From Eledone cirrhosa (lineage: Eukaryota): a stretch of DNA of 64,000 bases. Shown piece by piece: positions 29,572-62,770 of this stretch. Location of the stretch: NCBI GenBank assembly GCA_964016885.1, contig OZ024740.1:284952001-285016000 (forward strand), written 5' to 3'. The notes beneath the pieces are model-generated. The model ran no database searches, was not told where the DNA came from, and saw only the letters and a list, made by a program, of their open reading frames with translations. A program made the position numbers and the translations under genes. Within the stretch, counting starts at the first letter, position 1. Every line of letters begins with the position of its first letter.

Positions 29572-30497
29572 CGCACACATATATATATATATACCATTCT
29601 CACATCCATTCTGCTTGATTAAATTATGATATGATAAAGATTTTTACAATTCATAGTTTTGGTGTGGTTTTACTGTCTGGATGCCCTTCCTATCATCAAC
29701 CACTTTAGAGCATAGGCTAGGTCCATTTTATCATGCCACCAACACTGGAGAGGTTGCCTGTCAGGACTAAAATTTCCTACTCTATACTGTGTCAATTTTA
29801 TTCAGAGTTACTGCTCTTCTAAATGAGTTGCAGCTTCAGGAGCCAATATCTCCCCCTCTCTTTGTGTATATATATATATATATATATATCATCATCATCA
29901 TCAACACAGTTTAACATCCATTTTCCCTGCTAGCATGGGTTAGACGGGTTGTCCGATTTGAGGCCAGTCGAGGTTAGATGACCATGTCTTGCTTATACAG
30001 AATTGATTTTGGCTTGGTATCTACAGATGGATGCCCTTCCTAATTCCAACCACATTTAAAGTGATCACTGGGTGTTTTTTTGACATGACACCTACACGAC
30101 CATTTTACAATGTGGGCTGGGTGCTTTTTGTTGTGACACCTACATGACCACTTCACAGTGTGGGTTGGGTGCTTTTTGACATGACACCTACACGACCACT
30201 TTACAGTGTGACTGGGTGCTTTTTGTTGTGTCAGTAACCAATAACAAATAAAGTTGAAGTGAAAGTTAAATAGTGTGTGTATTTTTATTGACCAAATTGC
30301 ATCATGATCATCCCCAAATATAACACCATCTATCTATCTATATATATATGACCAAAGATTAATATGGTTCATTGATTACTCAATGAATACCATGTTACAA
30401 TAGATTAAAAGCACTCAACAAAAAAAGTTTTCCTGGAGTTTTTAATATTATTCAAAATATTAACAAATGAAGGATATTCACATAATCAAAATATTTG

Positions 30498-30514
30498 CTT
30501 TATTATATATATTT
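30498..30514 (-). ncRNA. 3' half of a hammerhead interrupted by a LINE insertion
   Basis: Minus strand AAA-tatata-TA-ataaag. It completes the core whose 5' half lies at 31223-31270. Confidence 0.7.
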
Positions 30515-31193
30515 GTGTAATAGTAATATACGTGAACGGCAAAGCATAAACGAACTAAGGAAAAAATTAGAAATAAGAGGGATCAGATGTTGTTTACTCG
30601 AGAGAAGGCTACGTTGGTATGGTCACGTGATGCGCATGAAAGACGACAGCTGTATAACAAAGTGCAGGGCAATAAAGATAGACGGTGGCCACGGAGTAGG
30701 CAGACCCAGAAAAACCTGGGACGACTTGATAAATTCCAACCTCACACACTTACACCTCTCCAAGACAATGTCACTGGACCGAGACTTTTGGCGGTACTCA
30801 GTAATAGAGAAGACCCGCCTTACCTAAATACAAAGTAAAACCTACTACAGTCAGTAGGCATCTCTAACAAAATACACCCCCGTCCCACCACCCCCACCCC
30901 ATCCACACCGCCCCTTTCAATGTAAAGTTATGTTGGTGCCACAACATCCAAGCCGAAACAAATGAGATCGTGTGTCACGACAAAAAACACACAGTCCACG
31001 CTGTAATGTGGCCGTGTAGGCAACACGGTAAAAACCTCCCAGCCCCACACTGTAAATGTGGTTGGTGTTAGGAAGGGCATCCAGCTGTAGAAAACCCGCC
31101 AGACAGTCCTATGCGAGCAATGACAACCACTCTTGCCTCAAGTGGGAAAACTCCCGTCCAAACCCATGCAAGCGTGGAACATGGGCGTTAAAC

Positions 31194-31222
<29 letters not shown>
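30515..31222 (+). mobile_element. 5'-truncated young RTE LINE copy
   Basis: Near-identical to 28814-29498. (GAT)n tail. Short attt duplication at the two junctions. Confidence 0.95.
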
Positions 31223-31225
<3 letters not shown>

Positions 31226-31270
31226 CAGAGGTACTGCGTTGTTTTTTCAGTACGTCTTCGTCAGATAAAA
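31223..31270 (-). ncRNA. 5' half of interrupted type I hammerhead
   Basis: Minus strand ttttat-CTGACGA-aga-c-gtactg-loop-cagtac-c-tct-GAAA, running directly into the LINE tail. Confidence 0.75.
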
Positions 31271-32354
31271 TATATGATTTGATATAAGACATTGATTATA
31301 CAATTCCAGTATTGGCAGTCAATATATATATATAATACAGAAGACCCGACTTCCCACGGGAACAAGCCGAAGCTGAAGCATATAGACAATATGCCCCCCA
31401 TCCTCTCCCACTGCAAAGTGGTCGGTCGTGGAGGTGTCACGACAAAAAAGTACCCAGCCCACACTGTAAAGTGTGGTTGGTGTTAGGAAGGCCATCCAGC
31501 TGTAGAAATCAAGCCAAAATCAGTTCCCGTATGAGCAAGACAAGGTCACCTGACCTGGCATTGCCCACAACAGGACAACCCATCTAACCCATGCTAGCGT
31601 GGAAGAATGGATGTAAAATAGTGATGATGATGATGATGATGATAATAGTAATAAATAAAAAATATATACGTTATATCATCTCTATTTATTTCATTATATA
31701 TATTTCAAAGATATAAAGTTTTATGTATAACAAAGCAAAACATCTCTTCCTCAGACAAAATACATAAAAAATGCATAATATTTTCATGATATGCTGGTAG
31801 ACAAACAAGCTGGACAGATCGGTGACCACCAAATCAACTAACTCTTCTTTCATTGATTAATATATATATATGTATGTATGCATGCACACATATATATATA
31901 TACGAGAGATTCACTGACATAGATAGCTTATATTTTGAAGTTGAAAGAATGCAGAGATAGCTAAGCAATCCAGAAGATATGTTGAAAATGCACACAGTTA
32001 CTGTAGGGTCAGGCACAAAAAAAAATGAAGGAAAATCAAAACAAACATCCGTTTTACAATATTAAAAATACATAAACGAAATTTTTTTTTTCTTCGCTTA
32101 TGCAAGTCAATAAACTCATGAAACATAAAACTGTGTCCTATTCATTTTATTTTCTTCTTTATTTATGTCAGTCTGCACATGTTTTTTCTGTAATGTATTT
32201 TGGAAAATTATGAAAGCTCTTCATAATTATCAGCATCATTTTTCATCCACTTTCCCTGTTCACATGAGTTGCACAGATTGACACAATCTGAGACATGATG
32301 GGTCAGATAACCATGCTTTACTCATGTTCCATATTTACAGATGGCACTATATTT

Positions 32355-45937: not shown

Positions 45938-46275
45938 TTCATCATCATTTCATTTTACGTCTGCTTTTCCCTGCTTACAAGGGTGGGACGGGAACAGATT
46001 CTGGCTTGATTTCTACAGCTAGATGCCTTTCCTAACACCAACCTCATTTACAGTGAGTGCTCGGTGCTTTTTTGCCGTGGCACCTCCACGACCACTTTGC
46101 AGTGGAATGATAGGGACCCCAGTCCCTATCATCTCATTTCTACAGCTGAGGAAACTGGAGCAATGTGAAATAAAGTGTCTTGCTCAAGGAAACAACACAT
46201 CACCCGGTCTGAGAATTGAACTCACAACCTTTCGATTGCAAGACCAATGCTCTAACCACTAAGCCATGTGCCTCC
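45935..46275 (-). mobile_element. tRNA-head SINE with RTE-derived tail (family B)
   Basis: A box tggcttagtgg, B box gagttcaattc, CORE-like ccttgagcaagacacttt, tail ggttggtgttaggaaaggcatctagctgtagaaa and (ATG)n. Flanked by (TA)n. Confidence 0.9.
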
Positions 46276-46330: not shown

Positions 46331-46391
46331 TATTCTATTATATATATTTCAAGGGTACCAAAACTTTGGTACGCTCTCATCAGATAAAATA
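46331..46391 (-). ncRNA. intact minimal type I hammerhead ribozyme
   Basis: tattttat-CTGATGA-gag-c-gtaccaa-agtt-ttggtac-c-ctt-GAAA-t-atat-a-TA^atagaata. 8-bp stem I, ~10-bp stem II, minimal stem III with palindromic ATAT loop, AUA cleavage triplet. Lies in a ~165-bp element between (TA)n runs. Confidence 0.85.
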
Positions 46392-46868
46392 CAAAATTTG
46401 TTTTATAAATAGTGACATACCCAGGAATCGGACCTTAACGGTTCAAGTTCCGTATATATATATATACATATATATATATATTGTAACTCTCAGATACGAG
46501 TTACAAGTCGGGAAAGCCACACAGCTCTCCATCTCTATTAACCTTTGAAAATCATGAAACTTGTGAAACTAGTAAAGTTATAAATTATTGTAAATAAACC
46601 TTCTTTAAAGTCTCCAATTGCATTTTCAACTTCTTTTTCCTAGATACGTGTGTGTGTGTGGTTATTACCAGGAAGGGCAGCCTGCTGTAAATATTGCCTC
46701 AAAATGTCCTGTTCAACCCATGCTAGCATAGAAAAGTCGATGGAAAAACAATGAAGATAAGGATAAACACACACACATATATATGGTAACTATAGAAGAG
46801 GAAGACCTAAGAAAACTTGGGATGAAGTGATAAAAGCTGGCCTTGCCAAATTAAACCTCACAAAGGAG

Positions 46869-48604
46869 GGCTCTGTTCTTAGCCCCCTACTATTTATTAT
46901 TGCCCTTCAGGCTATAACAGAGGAGTTCAAGACCGGCTGCCCATGGGAACTCCTATACGCAGATGATCTAACGCTCATAGCTGAATCAATGACCGAACTA
47001 GAGAAGAAATTCCAAACATGGAAGCACGGCCTAGAATCAAAAGGCCTTAAAATTAACCTGGCTAAGACTAAAGTTCTAGTTTGTAGGAAAGAAAATAGGG
47101 CGGCGGTCCCTTCCGGGAAATGGCCATGCTCAGTGTGTAGGAAAGGCGTAGGTAGAAACTCCATTTTATGTCCCCAATGCAAAGTATGGGTGCATAAAAG
47201 ATGTAGTGGGATCACAGGTAAGCTAACTAAGAACATAGATTTTACATGTGGCCGGTGCTCTGGTGCAATAAGTAGCAGCAAGTGCCCACTAAATACTAGC
47301 TCTTTCAATTGCGCAGAGGGTTCTATAGAAATAGTGGACAGCTTCCGTTACCTGGGTGACAAAATCAGCAGTGGGGGAGGGTGCTCTGAAAGTACAGTAG
47401 CTAGAGTCAGAACTGGATGGAAAAAGTTCAGAGAGCTTATACCACTATTAGCTGCTAAAGGGTTCTCCCTAAAAATGAAAGGCAGGTTGTACGATGCCTG
47501 CATACGAACAGCAATGCTGCATGGCAGTGAGACCTGGGCATTGTGTGCAGAGGATATACGCAGACTAGAGAGGAACGAAGCTTGCATGCTCCGCTGGATG
47601 TGAACGGCTAAGCATAAACGAACTAAGCAAAAAATTAGAAATAAGAGGGATCAGATGTTGTTTACTCGAGAGAAGGCTACGTTGGTACGGTCACGTGATG
47701 CGCATGAAAGACGACAGCTGTATAACAAAGTGCAGGGCAATAAAGATAGACGGTAGCCACGGAGTAGGCAGACCCAGAAAAACCTGGGACGACATGATAA
47801 ATTCCGACCTCACACGCTTACACATCTCCAAGACAATGTCACTAGACCGAGACCTTTGGCGGTACTCAGTAACAGAGAAGACCCGCCTTACCTAAATATA
47901 TAGTAAAACCTACTCCAGCCAGTAGGCATCTCTATCAAAATACACCCCCGTCCCACCACCCCCACCCCATACACACCGCCCCTGTCAATGTAAAGTTATG
48001 TTGGTGCCACAACATCCAGGCCGAAACAAATGAGGTCGTGTAGGTGTCACGACAAAAAAACACACAGTCCACGCTGTAATGTGGCCGTGTAGGTAACACG
48101 GTAAAAACCTCCCAGCCCCACACTGTAAATGTGGTTGGTGTTAGGAAGGGCATCCAGCTGTAGAAAACCTGCCAGACAGTCCATGCTGTAATGTGGCCGT
48201 GTAGGCAACACGGTAAAAACCTCCCAGCCCCACACTGTAAATGTGGTTGGTGTTAGGAAGGGCATCCAACTGTAGAAAACCCGCCAGACAGTCCACGCTG
48301 TAAATGTGGCCGTGTAGGCAACACGGTAAAAACCTCCCAGCCCCACACTGTAAATGTGGTTGGTGTTAGGAAGGGCATCCAACTGTAGAAAACCCGCCAG
48401 ACAGTCCACGCTGTAAATGTGGCCGTGTAGGCAACACGGTAAAAACCTCCCAGCCCCACACTGTAAATGTGGTTGGTGTTAGGAAGGGCATCCAGCTGTA
48501 GAAAACCCGCCAGACAGTCCTATGCGAGCAAGACAACCACTCTTGCCTCAAGTGGGAAAACCCCCGTCCAAACCCATGCAGGCGTGGAACACGGACGCTA
48601 AACC

Positions 48605-48633
<29 letters not shown>
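46869..48633 (+). mobile_element. 5'-truncated young RTE LINE nested in an older RTE 3' end
   Basis: RT from GSVLSP through YADD, PHD and C-terminus. TSD aaaggag at 46862-46868 and 48634-48640. The older element resumes after it (gatgacag..gacctctgg...aagaccc). Confidence 0.95.
48065..48514 (+). repeat. 4 tandem copies of a 112-113-bp unit in the LINE 3' UTR
   Basis: Unit starts at 48065, 48177, 48289 and 48402, each beginning cagtcc. Other LINE copies carry one unit. Confidence 0.95.
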
Positions 48634-48635
<2 letters not shown>

Positions 48636-49676: not shown

Positions 49677-50027
49677 GGAGGCACATGGCTTAGTGGTTAG
49701 AGCATTGGCCTTGCAATCGAAAGGTTGTGAGTTCAATTCTCAGACCGGGTGATGTGTTGTTTCCTTGAGCAAGACACTTTATTTCACACTGCTCCAGTTT
49801 ACTCAGCTGTAGAAATGAGATGATAGGGACAGGAGTCCCTATCATTCCACTGCAAAGTGGTCGTGGAGTTGCCACGGCAAAAAAGCACCGAGCACTCACT
49901 GTAAATGAGGTTGGTGTTAGGAAGGGCATCCAGCTGTAGAAATCAAGCCAGAATCAGTTCCCGTCCCTCTCTTGCAAGCAGGGAAAAAGCAGACGTAAAA
50001 TGAAATGATGATGATGATGATGATGAT
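49677..50027 (+). mobile_element. tRNA-head SINE with RTE-derived tail (family B)
   Basis: Near-identical inverted copy of 45935-46275. Begins right after (TA)n and ends in (ATG)n. Confidence 0.9.
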
Positions 50028-60163: not shown

Positions 60164-62205
60164 TCATCATCATCAACGTTTAACGTCCGTGTTCCACGCT
60201 TGCATGGGTTTGGACGGGGGTTTTCCCACTTGAGGCAAGAGTGATTGTCTTGCTCGCATAGGACTGTCTGGCAGGTTTTCTACAGTTGGATGCCCTTCCT
60301 AACACCAACCACATTTACAGTGTGGGTCTGGGAGGTTTTTACCGTGTTGCCTACACAGCCACATTACAGCGTGGACTGTGTGTTTTTTTGTCGTGACACC
60401 TACACGATCTCATTTGTTTCGGCCTGGATGGTGTGGCACCAACATAACTTTACATAGAAGGGGAGTGGGGGGTGGGGGTGTATTTTGTTAGAGATGCCTA
60501 CTGACTGTAGTAGGTTTTACTATGTATTTAGGTAAGGCGGGTCTTCTCTATTACTGAGTACCGCCAAAGGTCTCGGTCCAGTGACATTGTCTTGGAGAGG
60601 TGTAAGTGTGTGAGGTCGGAGTTTATCAGCTCGTCCCAGGCTTCTCTAGGTCTGCCTATTCCGTGGCTACCGTCTATCTTTATTGCCCTGCACTTTGTTA
60701 TACAGCTATCGACTTTCATGCGCATCACGTGTCCATACCAACGTAGCCTTCTCTCGAGTAAACAACATCTGATCCCTCTTATTTCTAATTTTTTCTTTAG
60801 TTCGTTTATGCTTTGCCGTTCACGTATATTACTATTAAACATCCAGCGGAGCATGCAAGCTTCGTTCCTCTCTAGTCTGCGTATATCCTCTGCACACAAT
60901 GCCCAGGTCTCACTGCCATGCAACATTGCTGTTCGTATGCAGGCATCATACAACCTGCCTTTCGTTTTTAGGGAGAACCCTTTAGCGGCTAATAGTGGTA
61001 TAAGCTCTCTGAACTTTTTCCATCCAGTTCTGACTCTAGCTACTGTACTTTCAGAGCACCCTCCCCCACTGCTGATTTTGTCACCCAGGTAACGGAAGCT
61101 GTCCACTATTTCTATAGAGCCCTCTGCGCAGTTGAAAGAGCTAGTATTTTGTGGGCACTTGCTGCTACTTATTGCACCAGAGCACCGGCCACATGTGAAA
61201 TCTATGTTCTTAGTTAGCTCACCTGTGATCCCACTACATCTTTTATGCACCCATGCTCTGCATTTCTGACACAAAATGGAGTTTCTACCTACGCCTTTCC
61301 TACACACTGAGCATGGCCACTTCCCGGAAGGGACCACCGCCTTATTTTCTTTCCTACAAACTAGAACTTTGGTCTTAGCCAGATTCATTTTAAGGCCTTT
61401 TGATTCTAGGCCGTGCTTCCATGTTTGGAATTTCTTCTCTAGCTCGGCCATTGATTCAGCTATGAGTGTTAGGTCGTCTGCGTATAGGAGTTCCCATGGG
61501 CAGCCGGTCTTGAACTCCTCTGTTATAGCCTGAAGGGCAATAATAAATAGTAGGGGGCTGAGAACAGAGCCCTGATGGACGCCAACTTTTACGCTAAACT
61601 CTTCACTATATTCGTTGTTAATTCTAACCTTGCTGACTGTTTCTTTATACATGGCTTGTATAGCTCTCACAAGCCATTCATCGACACCTAGTTTTCTAAG
61701 GGCCCACCAGATAATGGAACGGGGGACTCTGTCGAAGGCTTTCTCCAAGTCGACAAAAGCTAAGTAGAGGGGTTTACTTTTAGCTAGGTACTTCTCCTGT
61801 AGTTGTCGTACAATGAAAAGTGCGTCTGTGGTACTTTTGCCTGACACAAACCCGAACTGCATTTCATCTAGGTCAATTCTCTCTCTGATTAGTTGCGCTA
61901 TTACCTTTTCCGTGACCCTCATGACCTGGTCGATTAATTTAATGCCTCTATAGTTACTCCTATCTAGGGCATCTCCTTTACCCTTATAACAGTTAACGAT
62001 GATGCTGCTATGCCAGTCCTTCGGAACAACCCCATTCTGTACGACTTGGTTAACTATCCGGGTGACCATGGTGTGTCCCACCGTGCCAGATGCTTTCAGC
62101 ATCTCAGCAACTATTTCCGAAGGCCCAGCCGCCTTACCCGTCTTCATATCCTTGATTGCCTTACTTATTATACTACCCTCGACTAACACTGCTGGTCCCT
62201 CTATT

Positions 62206-62207
<2 letters not shown>
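60164..62207 (-). mobile_element. 5'-truncated young RTE LINE
   Basis: Same family as 26001-29498. (ATG)n tail at ~60164-60175. 5' end abuts (TA)n at 62208. Confidence 0.96.
60528..62207 (-). CDS. uninterrupted RTE reverse transcriptase ORF with PHD-like finger (endonuclease lost by truncation)
   Basis: ~560 open codons from PIEGPAVL to EKTRLT*, with NYRGIKL, QFGF, DLEKAFD, HQGSVLSP, YADD and FRYLG. The listed N-terminus (MFVHIG...IYIY) is microsatellite read-through. Confidence 0.85.
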
Positions 62208-62241
<34 letters not shown>

Positions 62242-62770
62242 CCTATATGTACAAACATTATATATATATATATATTATGTATGTATCAAGAGTAATTCTT
62301 GAGTGGAGTAGTAGTATGAAGTTAATTATATTTTCTTATCTATCAAATGAGAGGTATTATTGTTGACTTGCCTTATCTGAACAGATCAAAAGCTCAAGTA
62401 AATTTGGACTACTTTCAGTCAACCATTCATTCTTTCATTCAAACTCTCTGAGCTGCCCATGTCCATTGATCACATGCTGGTTGTAAACCTTCTAAAAATA
62501 TTTCCTAATAAATTCACTATCCCAGCTCCACAGTTCTATGTTAGTTGTTAGGCATTTATTAATGTATTCTCTTCACGTTTTTATTTTTTAATATAATCAT
62601 TGTCAATGTCTTTGGTTTATTCATATCATATATATATATATATGTGTATTGGGATTTTGTATTTCTAAAGAAATATGGTATGTTTATAAAAAACATTTAG
62701 AAAGCCGTAGCTATGCAAAAAGACTGGCAGCTATCACCACCTGGCGGTATTCAGCAGATGCAGGGGTGAC

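What the first reader, a model, noticed from the sequence alone, without database searches (positions are those of the whole stretch)
30350..31320. Hammerhead ribozyme split through its catalytic core by a LINE insertion
Seen: removing the RTE copy 30515-31222 (short attt duplication) rejoins ttttat-CUGACGA-aga-c-gtactg/cagtac-c-tct-GAAA with tatata-UA-ataaag. This restores a complete hammerhead with the same architecture as 46331-46391 (same C-C mismatch, compensatory stem II changes gtaccaa/ttggtac vs gtactg/cagtac). That is internal covariation support for the fold. Inference: the TA-preferring LINE hit the TATATA loop of the ribozyme and inactivated it.
Basis: seen in the sequence. Interest (0 to 1): 0.7.

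Follow-up and report, generated by a model that had tools for sequence, protein, structure and literature searches.

The report
LINE nested in Penelope hammerhead
One jumping gene (a likely RTE-type LINE) landed inside the predicted self-cutting RNA motif of a truncated, gene-less fragment of another jumping gene, an ordinary event estimated at about one per 800 such motifs in this genome, roughly what the LINE's general liking for AT-rich sites would give.

Summary
A 707-bp, 5'-truncated LINE with a (GAT)n tail and a 4-bp duplication (30511-30514 / 31222-31225) interrupts a minimal type-I hammerhead on the minus strand. In 29 of 29 fetched paralogues of the left flank, the flank runs straight into the rest of the motif. 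The host is a ~260-bp solo pseudo-LTR of a Penelope-like element with Hydra-clade protein motifs, inserted in (TA)n and carrying no ORF, so it was already a dead fragment. The genome holds 63,006 intact motifs of this kind; an estimated 78 (0.12%) carry such a tail in the loop, against 48-84 expected from the genome-wide rate per AT site. The (TA)n beside the element is hit about ten times more often. So the ribozyme is not a special target. One real pattern remains: hits cluster at the last AT of the loop (28 of 45) and are at least tenfold biased to one orientation although the loop is palindromic. This fits the published RTE 'Tn-TA' signature, which my own test could not confirm. Inactivation is likely but untested. 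Earlier scan notes found Penelope hammerheads in this genome, none a nested split. Ordinary; low interest.

The parts
30340..30349 (.). (TA)n target of the Penelope-like element, at its 3' end
   Evidence: Sequence; (TA)>=3 beside this end in 24 of 29 paralogues
30351..30514 (-). 3' part of a solo pseudo-LTR of a Penelope-like element; homology ends sharply at 30351; a second, shorter end maps near 30444 in many other copies
30497..30514 (-). Cleavage-site half of the hammerhead: AAA of GAAA, palindromic loop, UA, helix I 3' strand
30499..30501 (+). T stretch 10-12 nt upstream of the duplication start; fits the RTE Tn-TA signature (inferred)
   Evidence: for positions; for the signature
30511..30514 (+). 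Left copy of the target-site duplication
30515..31221 (+). 5'-truncated LINE, likely RTE type: end of the RT ORF (stop near 30827), 3' UTR shared with SINEs, (GAT)n tail 31193-31221
   Evidence: 92-95% identical to three longer window copies, up to 96.5% to fetched copies; the longer copy at 60535-62285 hits RVT_1 and PHD
31222..31225 (+). Right copy of the target-site duplication
31222..31270 (-). Catalytic half of the hammerhead: helix I 5' strand, CUGACGA, helix II with C.C mismatch, GAAA-U
31271..31319 (-). 5' remainder of the pseudo-LTR, truncated, with a deletion of about 12 nt against paralogues; (TA)n follows at 31322-31334
31683..31764 (-). Neighbouring intact hammerhead motif of another family, same strand, same palindromic loop
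46331..46391 (-).

Best explanation
A 5'-truncated LINE, likely of RTE type, inserted into the predicted minimal hammerhead of an ORF-less solo pseudo-LTR of a Penelope-like element, likely because that loop is an ordinary AT-rich target and not because it is a ribozyme. Order of events: (1) a Penelope-like element with Hydra-clade motifs left a ~260-bp 3'-end fragment in (TA)n (shown by boundaries and paralogues); (2) the LINE endonuclease nicked the ribozyme-sense strand at the GAAA-U/loop edge, and the AU of the tail RNA paired with the nicked end (inferred from the 2-nt microhomology); (3) reverse transcription stopped after about 700 nt and left a duplication of up to 4 bp (shown). The T-rich antisense of helix I lies one helical turn upstream of the last TA of the loop, which likely explains the preferred position and orientation (inferred from the published Tn-TA signature). 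The insertion removes the palindrome from the catalytic half, so that half can no longer form the 8-bp dimer helix III and is predicted to be inactive; the copy was probably inert already.
For: Empty alleles in 29 of 29 left-flank paralogues; 3,859 exact intact junctions of this subfamily. The pseudo-LTR flanks a PLE ORF directly in L122 and in inverted form in L124-L126; 13 of 58 flank paralogue loci have a PLE ORF hit nearby, the window has none. Protein motifs RWR, DKT, CxCX5C, C-terminal GIY-YIG; Atlas neighbours at 0.96-0.98 carry HTH_animal, GIY-YIG or RVT_1. Recurrence: 18 of 19 tail-bearing loci are in the loop, 15 independent, with different elements and truncation points. No overall excess: about 78 of 63,006 against 48-84 expected; 17 of 1,442 at the flanking (TA)n; 0 of 1,119 in helix II. 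Helix III duplex -3.2 kcal/mol intact, +2.7 after insertion.
Against: The last AT of the loop is hit 5.5 times more than bulk ATTTC sites, and the opposite orientation holds only 3-5 loop hits in 43,098; generic AT preference does not explain either. My test of the Tn-TA signature was inconclusive (17 of 110 insertions usable, several duplications doubtful). The figure 78 is extrapolated from 100 of 159 rows, and the background rate includes non-retroposon (GAT)n. Pfam found no family in the two PLE ORFs scanned. The RTE label was not tested by phylogeny. Cleavage was not tested.
Confidence: 0.85

Rival explanations
1. The LINE machinery recognises the hammerhead itself, as a DNA structure or through ribozyme-cut RNA, and disables Penelope ribozymes preferentially.
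For: 28 of 45 loop hits at one position (p about 3e-6), 5.5-fold over bulk ATTTC; at least tenfold orientation bias; seen across several families.
Against: No excess over the per-AT rate; the flanking (TA)n is hit about ten times more; 40 of 45 junctions lie 5-7 nt from the self-cleavage site and only 3 of 45 within one base of it; target duplications point to insertion into DNA.
Confidence: 0.07
2. Plain (TA)n preference, with no role for the flanks.
For: 19 of 25 tails are followed by AT and 8 of 25 by ATATAT; total loop hits match the per-AT rate.
Against: The loop reads the same on both strands, yet hits are about 0.12% in one orientation and about 0.01% in the other, and they skew to one end of the run.
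Confidence: 0.2
3. The split motif is still a working discontinuous hammerhead: the two halves rejoin across the insert, or the cleavage-site half is cut by the neighbouring 31683 motif or by intact family RNA.
For: The duplication leaves the full palindrome, UA and helix I strand in the left half; these can pair with the neighbouring motif (helix III -3.2, helix I -0.1 kcal/mol). A discontinuous mammalian hammerhead is cited by title in PMC6765202.
Against: Helix I probability about 0.002 in the folded split allele; the pairings are weak and AU-rich; even intact PLE dimers cleave poorly in vitro; transcription of this strand is not shown.
Confidence: 0.08
4. The two flanks are unrelated, or the LINE and half the ribozyme travel together as one composite element.
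For: Four loci on contig C2 share one junction.
Against: Those four also share flanks at about 57-kb spacing, so they are one duplicated event; the others differ in element and truncation point; the flanks are contiguous in paralogues.
Confidence: 0.01

Closest known systems
Minimal type-I hammerheads in pseudo-LTRs of Penelope-like elements (Cervera and de la Pena 2014, PMC4209133; parts 1-2 of 4 read)
   Same: Type-I order, long helix II, short palindromic loop 3, thousands of mostly solitary copies and close inverted pairs, predicted to work as dimers.
   Different: Here helix II carries an internal C.C mismatch, the first pair is A-U in 61 of 111 motifs and G-C in only 22, no extra base after position 9 is needed in this register, and this copy is interrupted.
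Hydra clade of C-terminal EN+ PLEs (Craig et al. 2021, PMC8557442; section 11 and passages read)
   Same: DKT, CxCX5C linker, C-terminal GIY-YIG, terminal CxH, canonical hammerhead, (TA)n targets, direct and inverted pseudo-LTRs.
   Different: RWK reads RWR; the one-ended extension is about 94 nt against the 30-40 bp that paper gives for PLEs; L122 spans about 4.6 kb against 'generally <3 kb'; the main text names Octopus only for Naiads; supplements not read.
RTE-clade 'Tn-TA' insertion signature (Nishiyama and Ohshima 2018, PMC6007223, abstract, Results part 1 of 2, Discussion; Nakatsuka and Ohshima 2026, PMC13295347, abstract and Results)
   Same: Duplication starts with A after T, about 10 nt downstream of three Ts; microsatellite-like tail; 1-2 nt of 3' microhomology.
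   Different: The parts read cover plants, reptiles, mammals and fish, not a mollusc; duplications here are very short (0-5 bp, once 13); not confirmed by my profile.
Nested retrotransposon insertion (general knowledge, recalled)
   Same: A younger element with a target duplication inside an older, truncated one.
   Different: Only that the interrupted feature is a ribozyme motif.

Membership tests
Type-I minimal hammerhead (PLE type) | CUGANGA and GAAA boxes joined by helix II | tested here: met
   pairs 1-3 and 5-10 formed in 83-99% of the motifs (111; 108 for pair 10)
Type-I minimal hammerhead (PLE type) | Helix I around a UH cleavage site | tested here: met
   Six pairs formed in 92-95% of 111 motifs; in this copy only if the insert is removed; not the predicted monomer fold
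Type-I minimal hammerhead (PLE type) | Palindromic helix III/loop 3 for dimer formation | tested here: met
   8-bp self-complementary duplex, -3.2 kcal/mol; lost from the catalytic half after insertion
Type-I minimal hammerhead (PLE type) | G10.1-C11.1 pair | tested here: not met
   A-U in this copy; G-C in 22 of 111
Type-I minimal hammerhead (PLE type) | Match to an Rfam hammerhead model | tested here: not met
   None among 93 matches at E<=5, the intact 46331 motif included
Type-I minimal hammerhead (PLE type) | Self-cleavage | not testable with these tools
   Needs an assay
Penelope-like element (host family) | Direct or inverted pseudo-LTRs around one RT + GIY-YIG ORF | tested here: met
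   L122 direct, L124-L126 inverted; motifs; Atlas. Pfam itself gave no hit. The window copy has no ORF
Hydra clade PLE | DKT in place of DKG; CxCX5C linker | tested here: met
   DKT in 10 and CxCX5C in 11 of 21 locus stretches scanned, some overlapping
Hydra clade PLE | N-terminal RWK motif | tested here: inconclusive
   Reads RWR in L116, L122, L125, L128 (L116 and L122 overlap), aligned to RWR/RWK of homologues
Hydra clade PLE | Insertion into (TA)n; canonical hammerhead | tested here: met
   24 of 29
Hydra clade PLE | Placement in an RT tree with reference PLEs; absence of the CCHH motif | not tested
   No reference set was fetched
RTE-clade LINE (insert) | Non-LTR RT, 5' truncation, microsatellite-like tail, short duplication | tested here: met
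RTE-clade LINE (insert) | RT phylogeny within the RTE clade | not tested
RTE-clade LINE (insert) | Tn-TA target signature | tested here: inconclusive
   Fits this site (TTT at 30499-30501); profile over 17 of 110 insertions uninformative

The most novel reading that the evidence does not exclude
The geometry of the Penelope hammerhead makes it a one-way landing pad for RTE-type retroposons: they cut it at a fixed spot into a dead catalytic half and a complete substrate half, and that substrate half is still cleaved by intact family ribozymes, so dozens of loci would be natural split hammerheads created by one transposon in another.
Probability: 0.08. Interest if true: 0.5.

Novelty: new member of a known kind. 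Interest (0 to 1): 0.17.

Why it matters
As a locus it matters little: one of an estimated 78 such nests among 63,006 motifs, in a fragment with no ORF. Two by-products have modest value. The near-identical palindromic loops with fixed flanks act as a natural reporter of LINE target choice and show a strong orientation bias, which makes the Tn-TA model testable in a mollusc. And the host family carries Hydra-clade PLE motifs at very high copy number in an octopus-type genome.

Tried and rejected
Rfam scan: no hammerhead hit. Pfam on two PLE ORFs: no family. PDB sequence search: nothing relevant, best E 0.016. Neptune was my first clade guess; I dropped it when the linker read CxCX5C and DKG read DKT. 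My first rate (15 of 3,859, 0.4%) suggested a hot spot; I rejected it because that denominator omitted subfamilies with a C in the loop. Target profile from duplications: inconclusive. Upstream context of 60 background insertions: 5' ends too fuzzy for a matched control; three of the six 'HHR' flags (L183, L185, L192) look like chance. Orthologous empty site: public contigs are too fragmented, none spans the stretch; no RNA holder listed. Control near the ATGACATACC box: 4 plausible and 3 chance loci, denominator not measured; 3 loci, denominator not measured. Dropped from the 48 loci: one insertion upstream of the loop and two likely chance matches. Lunse et al. (PMC5785218) is not held; I saw only its title. 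Literature searches for a nested insertion splitting a hammerhead and for Penelope + hammerhead + octopus returned one paper each; the first I saw only as a listing, and in the passages read of the second no such case appears. The held library is partial.

Full report
Observation. The window is G000:C1:284952001-285016000 of a 3.0-Gb genome; I infer an octopus-type animal from its repeats, and no call names it. On the minus strand, 31222-31270 carries the helix I 5' strand, CUGACGA, helix II and GAAA-U; 30497-30514 carries AAA, the palindromic loop, UA and the helix I 3' strand. Between them lies 30515-31221, which is 92-95% identical to three longer LINE copies in the window, begins in mid-ORF and ends in (GAT)n. 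ATTT is present at both ends (30511-30514, 31222-31225). Its AT is shared with the tail and its last T with the LINE's 5' end, so the duplication is 4 bp at most. The break is at the edge between GAAA-U and the loop. Rfam does not detect either this or the intact 46331 motif.

The flanks are one element. Searches with each flank gave 2,565 and 710 candidates, 40 scored each. Of the 29 best left-flank paralogues fetched, 29 run straight into helix II (28 by pattern, one by eye), 28 reach the CUGANGA box and 22 have every box and the loop intact; 28 of 29 right-flank paralogues are preceded by the loop. Across 111 distinct motifs in all fetched DNA, helix II pairs 1-3 and 5-10 form in 83-99%, pair 4 is C.C in 98, pairs 9 and 10 covary, and six helix I pairs form in 92-95%. 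These sequences are related by descent and I ran no shuffle control, so this supports the fold without being an independent statistical test.

The host. Homology stops sharply at 30351 beside (TA)n in 24 of 29 copies, and many copies form inverted pairs with one long and one short end about 94 nt apart. In L122 two direct copies flank an ORF on the ribozyme strand; in L124-L126 the upstream copy is inverted. [quoted passage not shown] Atlas neighbours score 0.96-0.98 and carry HTH_animal, GIY-YIG or RVT_1; 189 homologues were found, mostly unnamed; Pfam gave nothing directly. These features match the Hydra clade of Penelope-like elements as described in PMC8557442 section 11; I built no tree, and that paper's supplements, unread, may already list such families. 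The window copy is about 260 bp without the insert, 5'-truncated, between two (TA)n runs, and the window has no PLE ORF hit. It could not have transposed on its own.

Is the ribozyme a target? For the window's family, a tail pattern gave 19 loci: 18 in the loop, four of them one duplicated event, so 15 independent insertions by different elements with different truncation points. The other half of the pseudo-LTR was found at the 5' junction in 10 of the 15, with duplications of 0-5 bp, once 13. Across all families there are 63,006 intact motifs (reversed control 2). The tail pattern gave 159 rows; the 100 shown are 48 loci, 45 in the loop after dropping three, which extrapolates to about 78, or 0.12%. 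The genome has 184,088 tails followed by AT[ACT] (control 44,483); with the site frequency from 200 kb of fixed-coordinate sample this predicts 48-84 loop hits. The (TA)n beside the element has 17 tails in 1,442 ends, 1.2% (there the order of insertion is unknown), and helix II has 0 in 1,119. So the loop is hit at an ordinary rate.

What does not fit plain TA preference. Of 45 loop hits, 28 are at the last AT, 12 at the one before, and 5 further up (p about 3e-6; 5.5-fold over bulk ATTTC, 1.5-fold over bulk ATATTTC). In the opposite orientation only 3 clear and 2 doubtful loop hits occur among 43,098 motifs, although the loop is palindromic; the two orientations were counted with different anchors. 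RTE-clade elements are reported to cut about ten bases downstream of a T stretch, with 1-2 nt of tail microhomology (PMC6007223; PMC13295347). Here TTT at 30499-30501 lies 10-12 nt upstream of the duplication start, and this T-rich stretch is the antisense of helix I. That would explain both position and polarity, but my own profile was inconclusive, so the link is inferred. Only 3 of 45 junctions lie within one base of the ribozyme's cleavage site, which argues against a role for self-cleavage.

Consequence for the ribozyme. PLE minimal hammerheads showed no cleavage as monomers and low cleavage as dimers (PMC4209133; reviewed in PMC6765202, passages). The rejoined allele is not predicted to form helix I alone (P about 0.001), while its palindrome gives an 8-bp intermolecular helix of -3.2 kcal/mol; after insertion the catalytic half gives +2.7. 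That half is therefore likely dead. The duplication leaves the other half with the full palindrome, cleavage site and helix I strand, which could in principle pair with the same-strand neighbour at 31683-31764 (-3.2 and -0.1 kcal/mol) or with family RNA. The pairing is weak and transcription is not shown, so I give this 8%.

Comparison and verdict. Hammerheads in pseudo-LTRs, Hydra-type PLEs in (TA)n, RTE insertion signatures and nested insertions are all known. RTE and Penelope families are listed as recently active in Octopus vulgaris, and that paper's main text has no mention of hammerheads or nested insertions (PMC13282606, passages). A preprint linking retrozymes to PLE pseudo-LTRs (10.64898/2026.07.22.740005, passages) does not mention octopus or RTE. 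Earlier scan notes report many Penelope hammerheads in this genome and none holding all words of a nested split. The finding is real and well spotted but ordinary; the orientation bias is the one point worth a follow-up. Interest 0.17.

Noticed in passing
window 31683-31764, minus strand: A third hammerhead motif (CUGAGGA core, long helix II, same palindromic loop) 490 nt from the split one on the same strand; its helix I strand can pair with the cleavage-site half, so cross-family dimers look possible.
   Followed up: partly
G000 genome-wide: 63,006 minimal hammerhead motifs share one loop design across several Penelope-like families, about one per 48 kb, against about 4,000 and 9,000 reported for coelacanth and Xenopus in PMC4209133.
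   Followed up: partly
window 60535-62285 (minus) and 46767-47603: The LINE's RT ORF carries a PHD finger just after the RT core (Pfam PF00628, E 1.2e-6); Atlas shows RT+PHD clusters, commonest phylum Mollusca.
   Followed up: partly
L005, L006, L012, L024, L032, L058 and others: Fold-back pairs of pseudo-LTRs with one long and one short end about 94 nt apart, longer than the 30-40 bp extension described for PLEs.
   Followed up: partly
L093-L096 (G000:C2:201.82-202.00 Mb): Four copies of one LINE-split hammerhead at about 57-kb spacing: a tandem segmental duplication.
   Followed up: partly
window 48034-48634: The 3' UTR of a LINE copy holds a ~112-nt segment three times in tandem.
   Followed up: no
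window 46209-46266 (minus) and 49686-49743 (plus): Partial tRNA-like matches, probably SINE heads (Rfam RF00005, 30.5 and 28.1 bits).
   Followed up: no
L042, about 1-560: A C-terminal GIY-YIG ORF piece of a different Penelope-type element near a pseudo-LTR of this family.
   Followed up: no
L108 and G000:C6:19719425-19719478: A tail joined to the hammerhead half and then an immediate fold-back; it may record an insertion followed by inversion.
   Followed up: no
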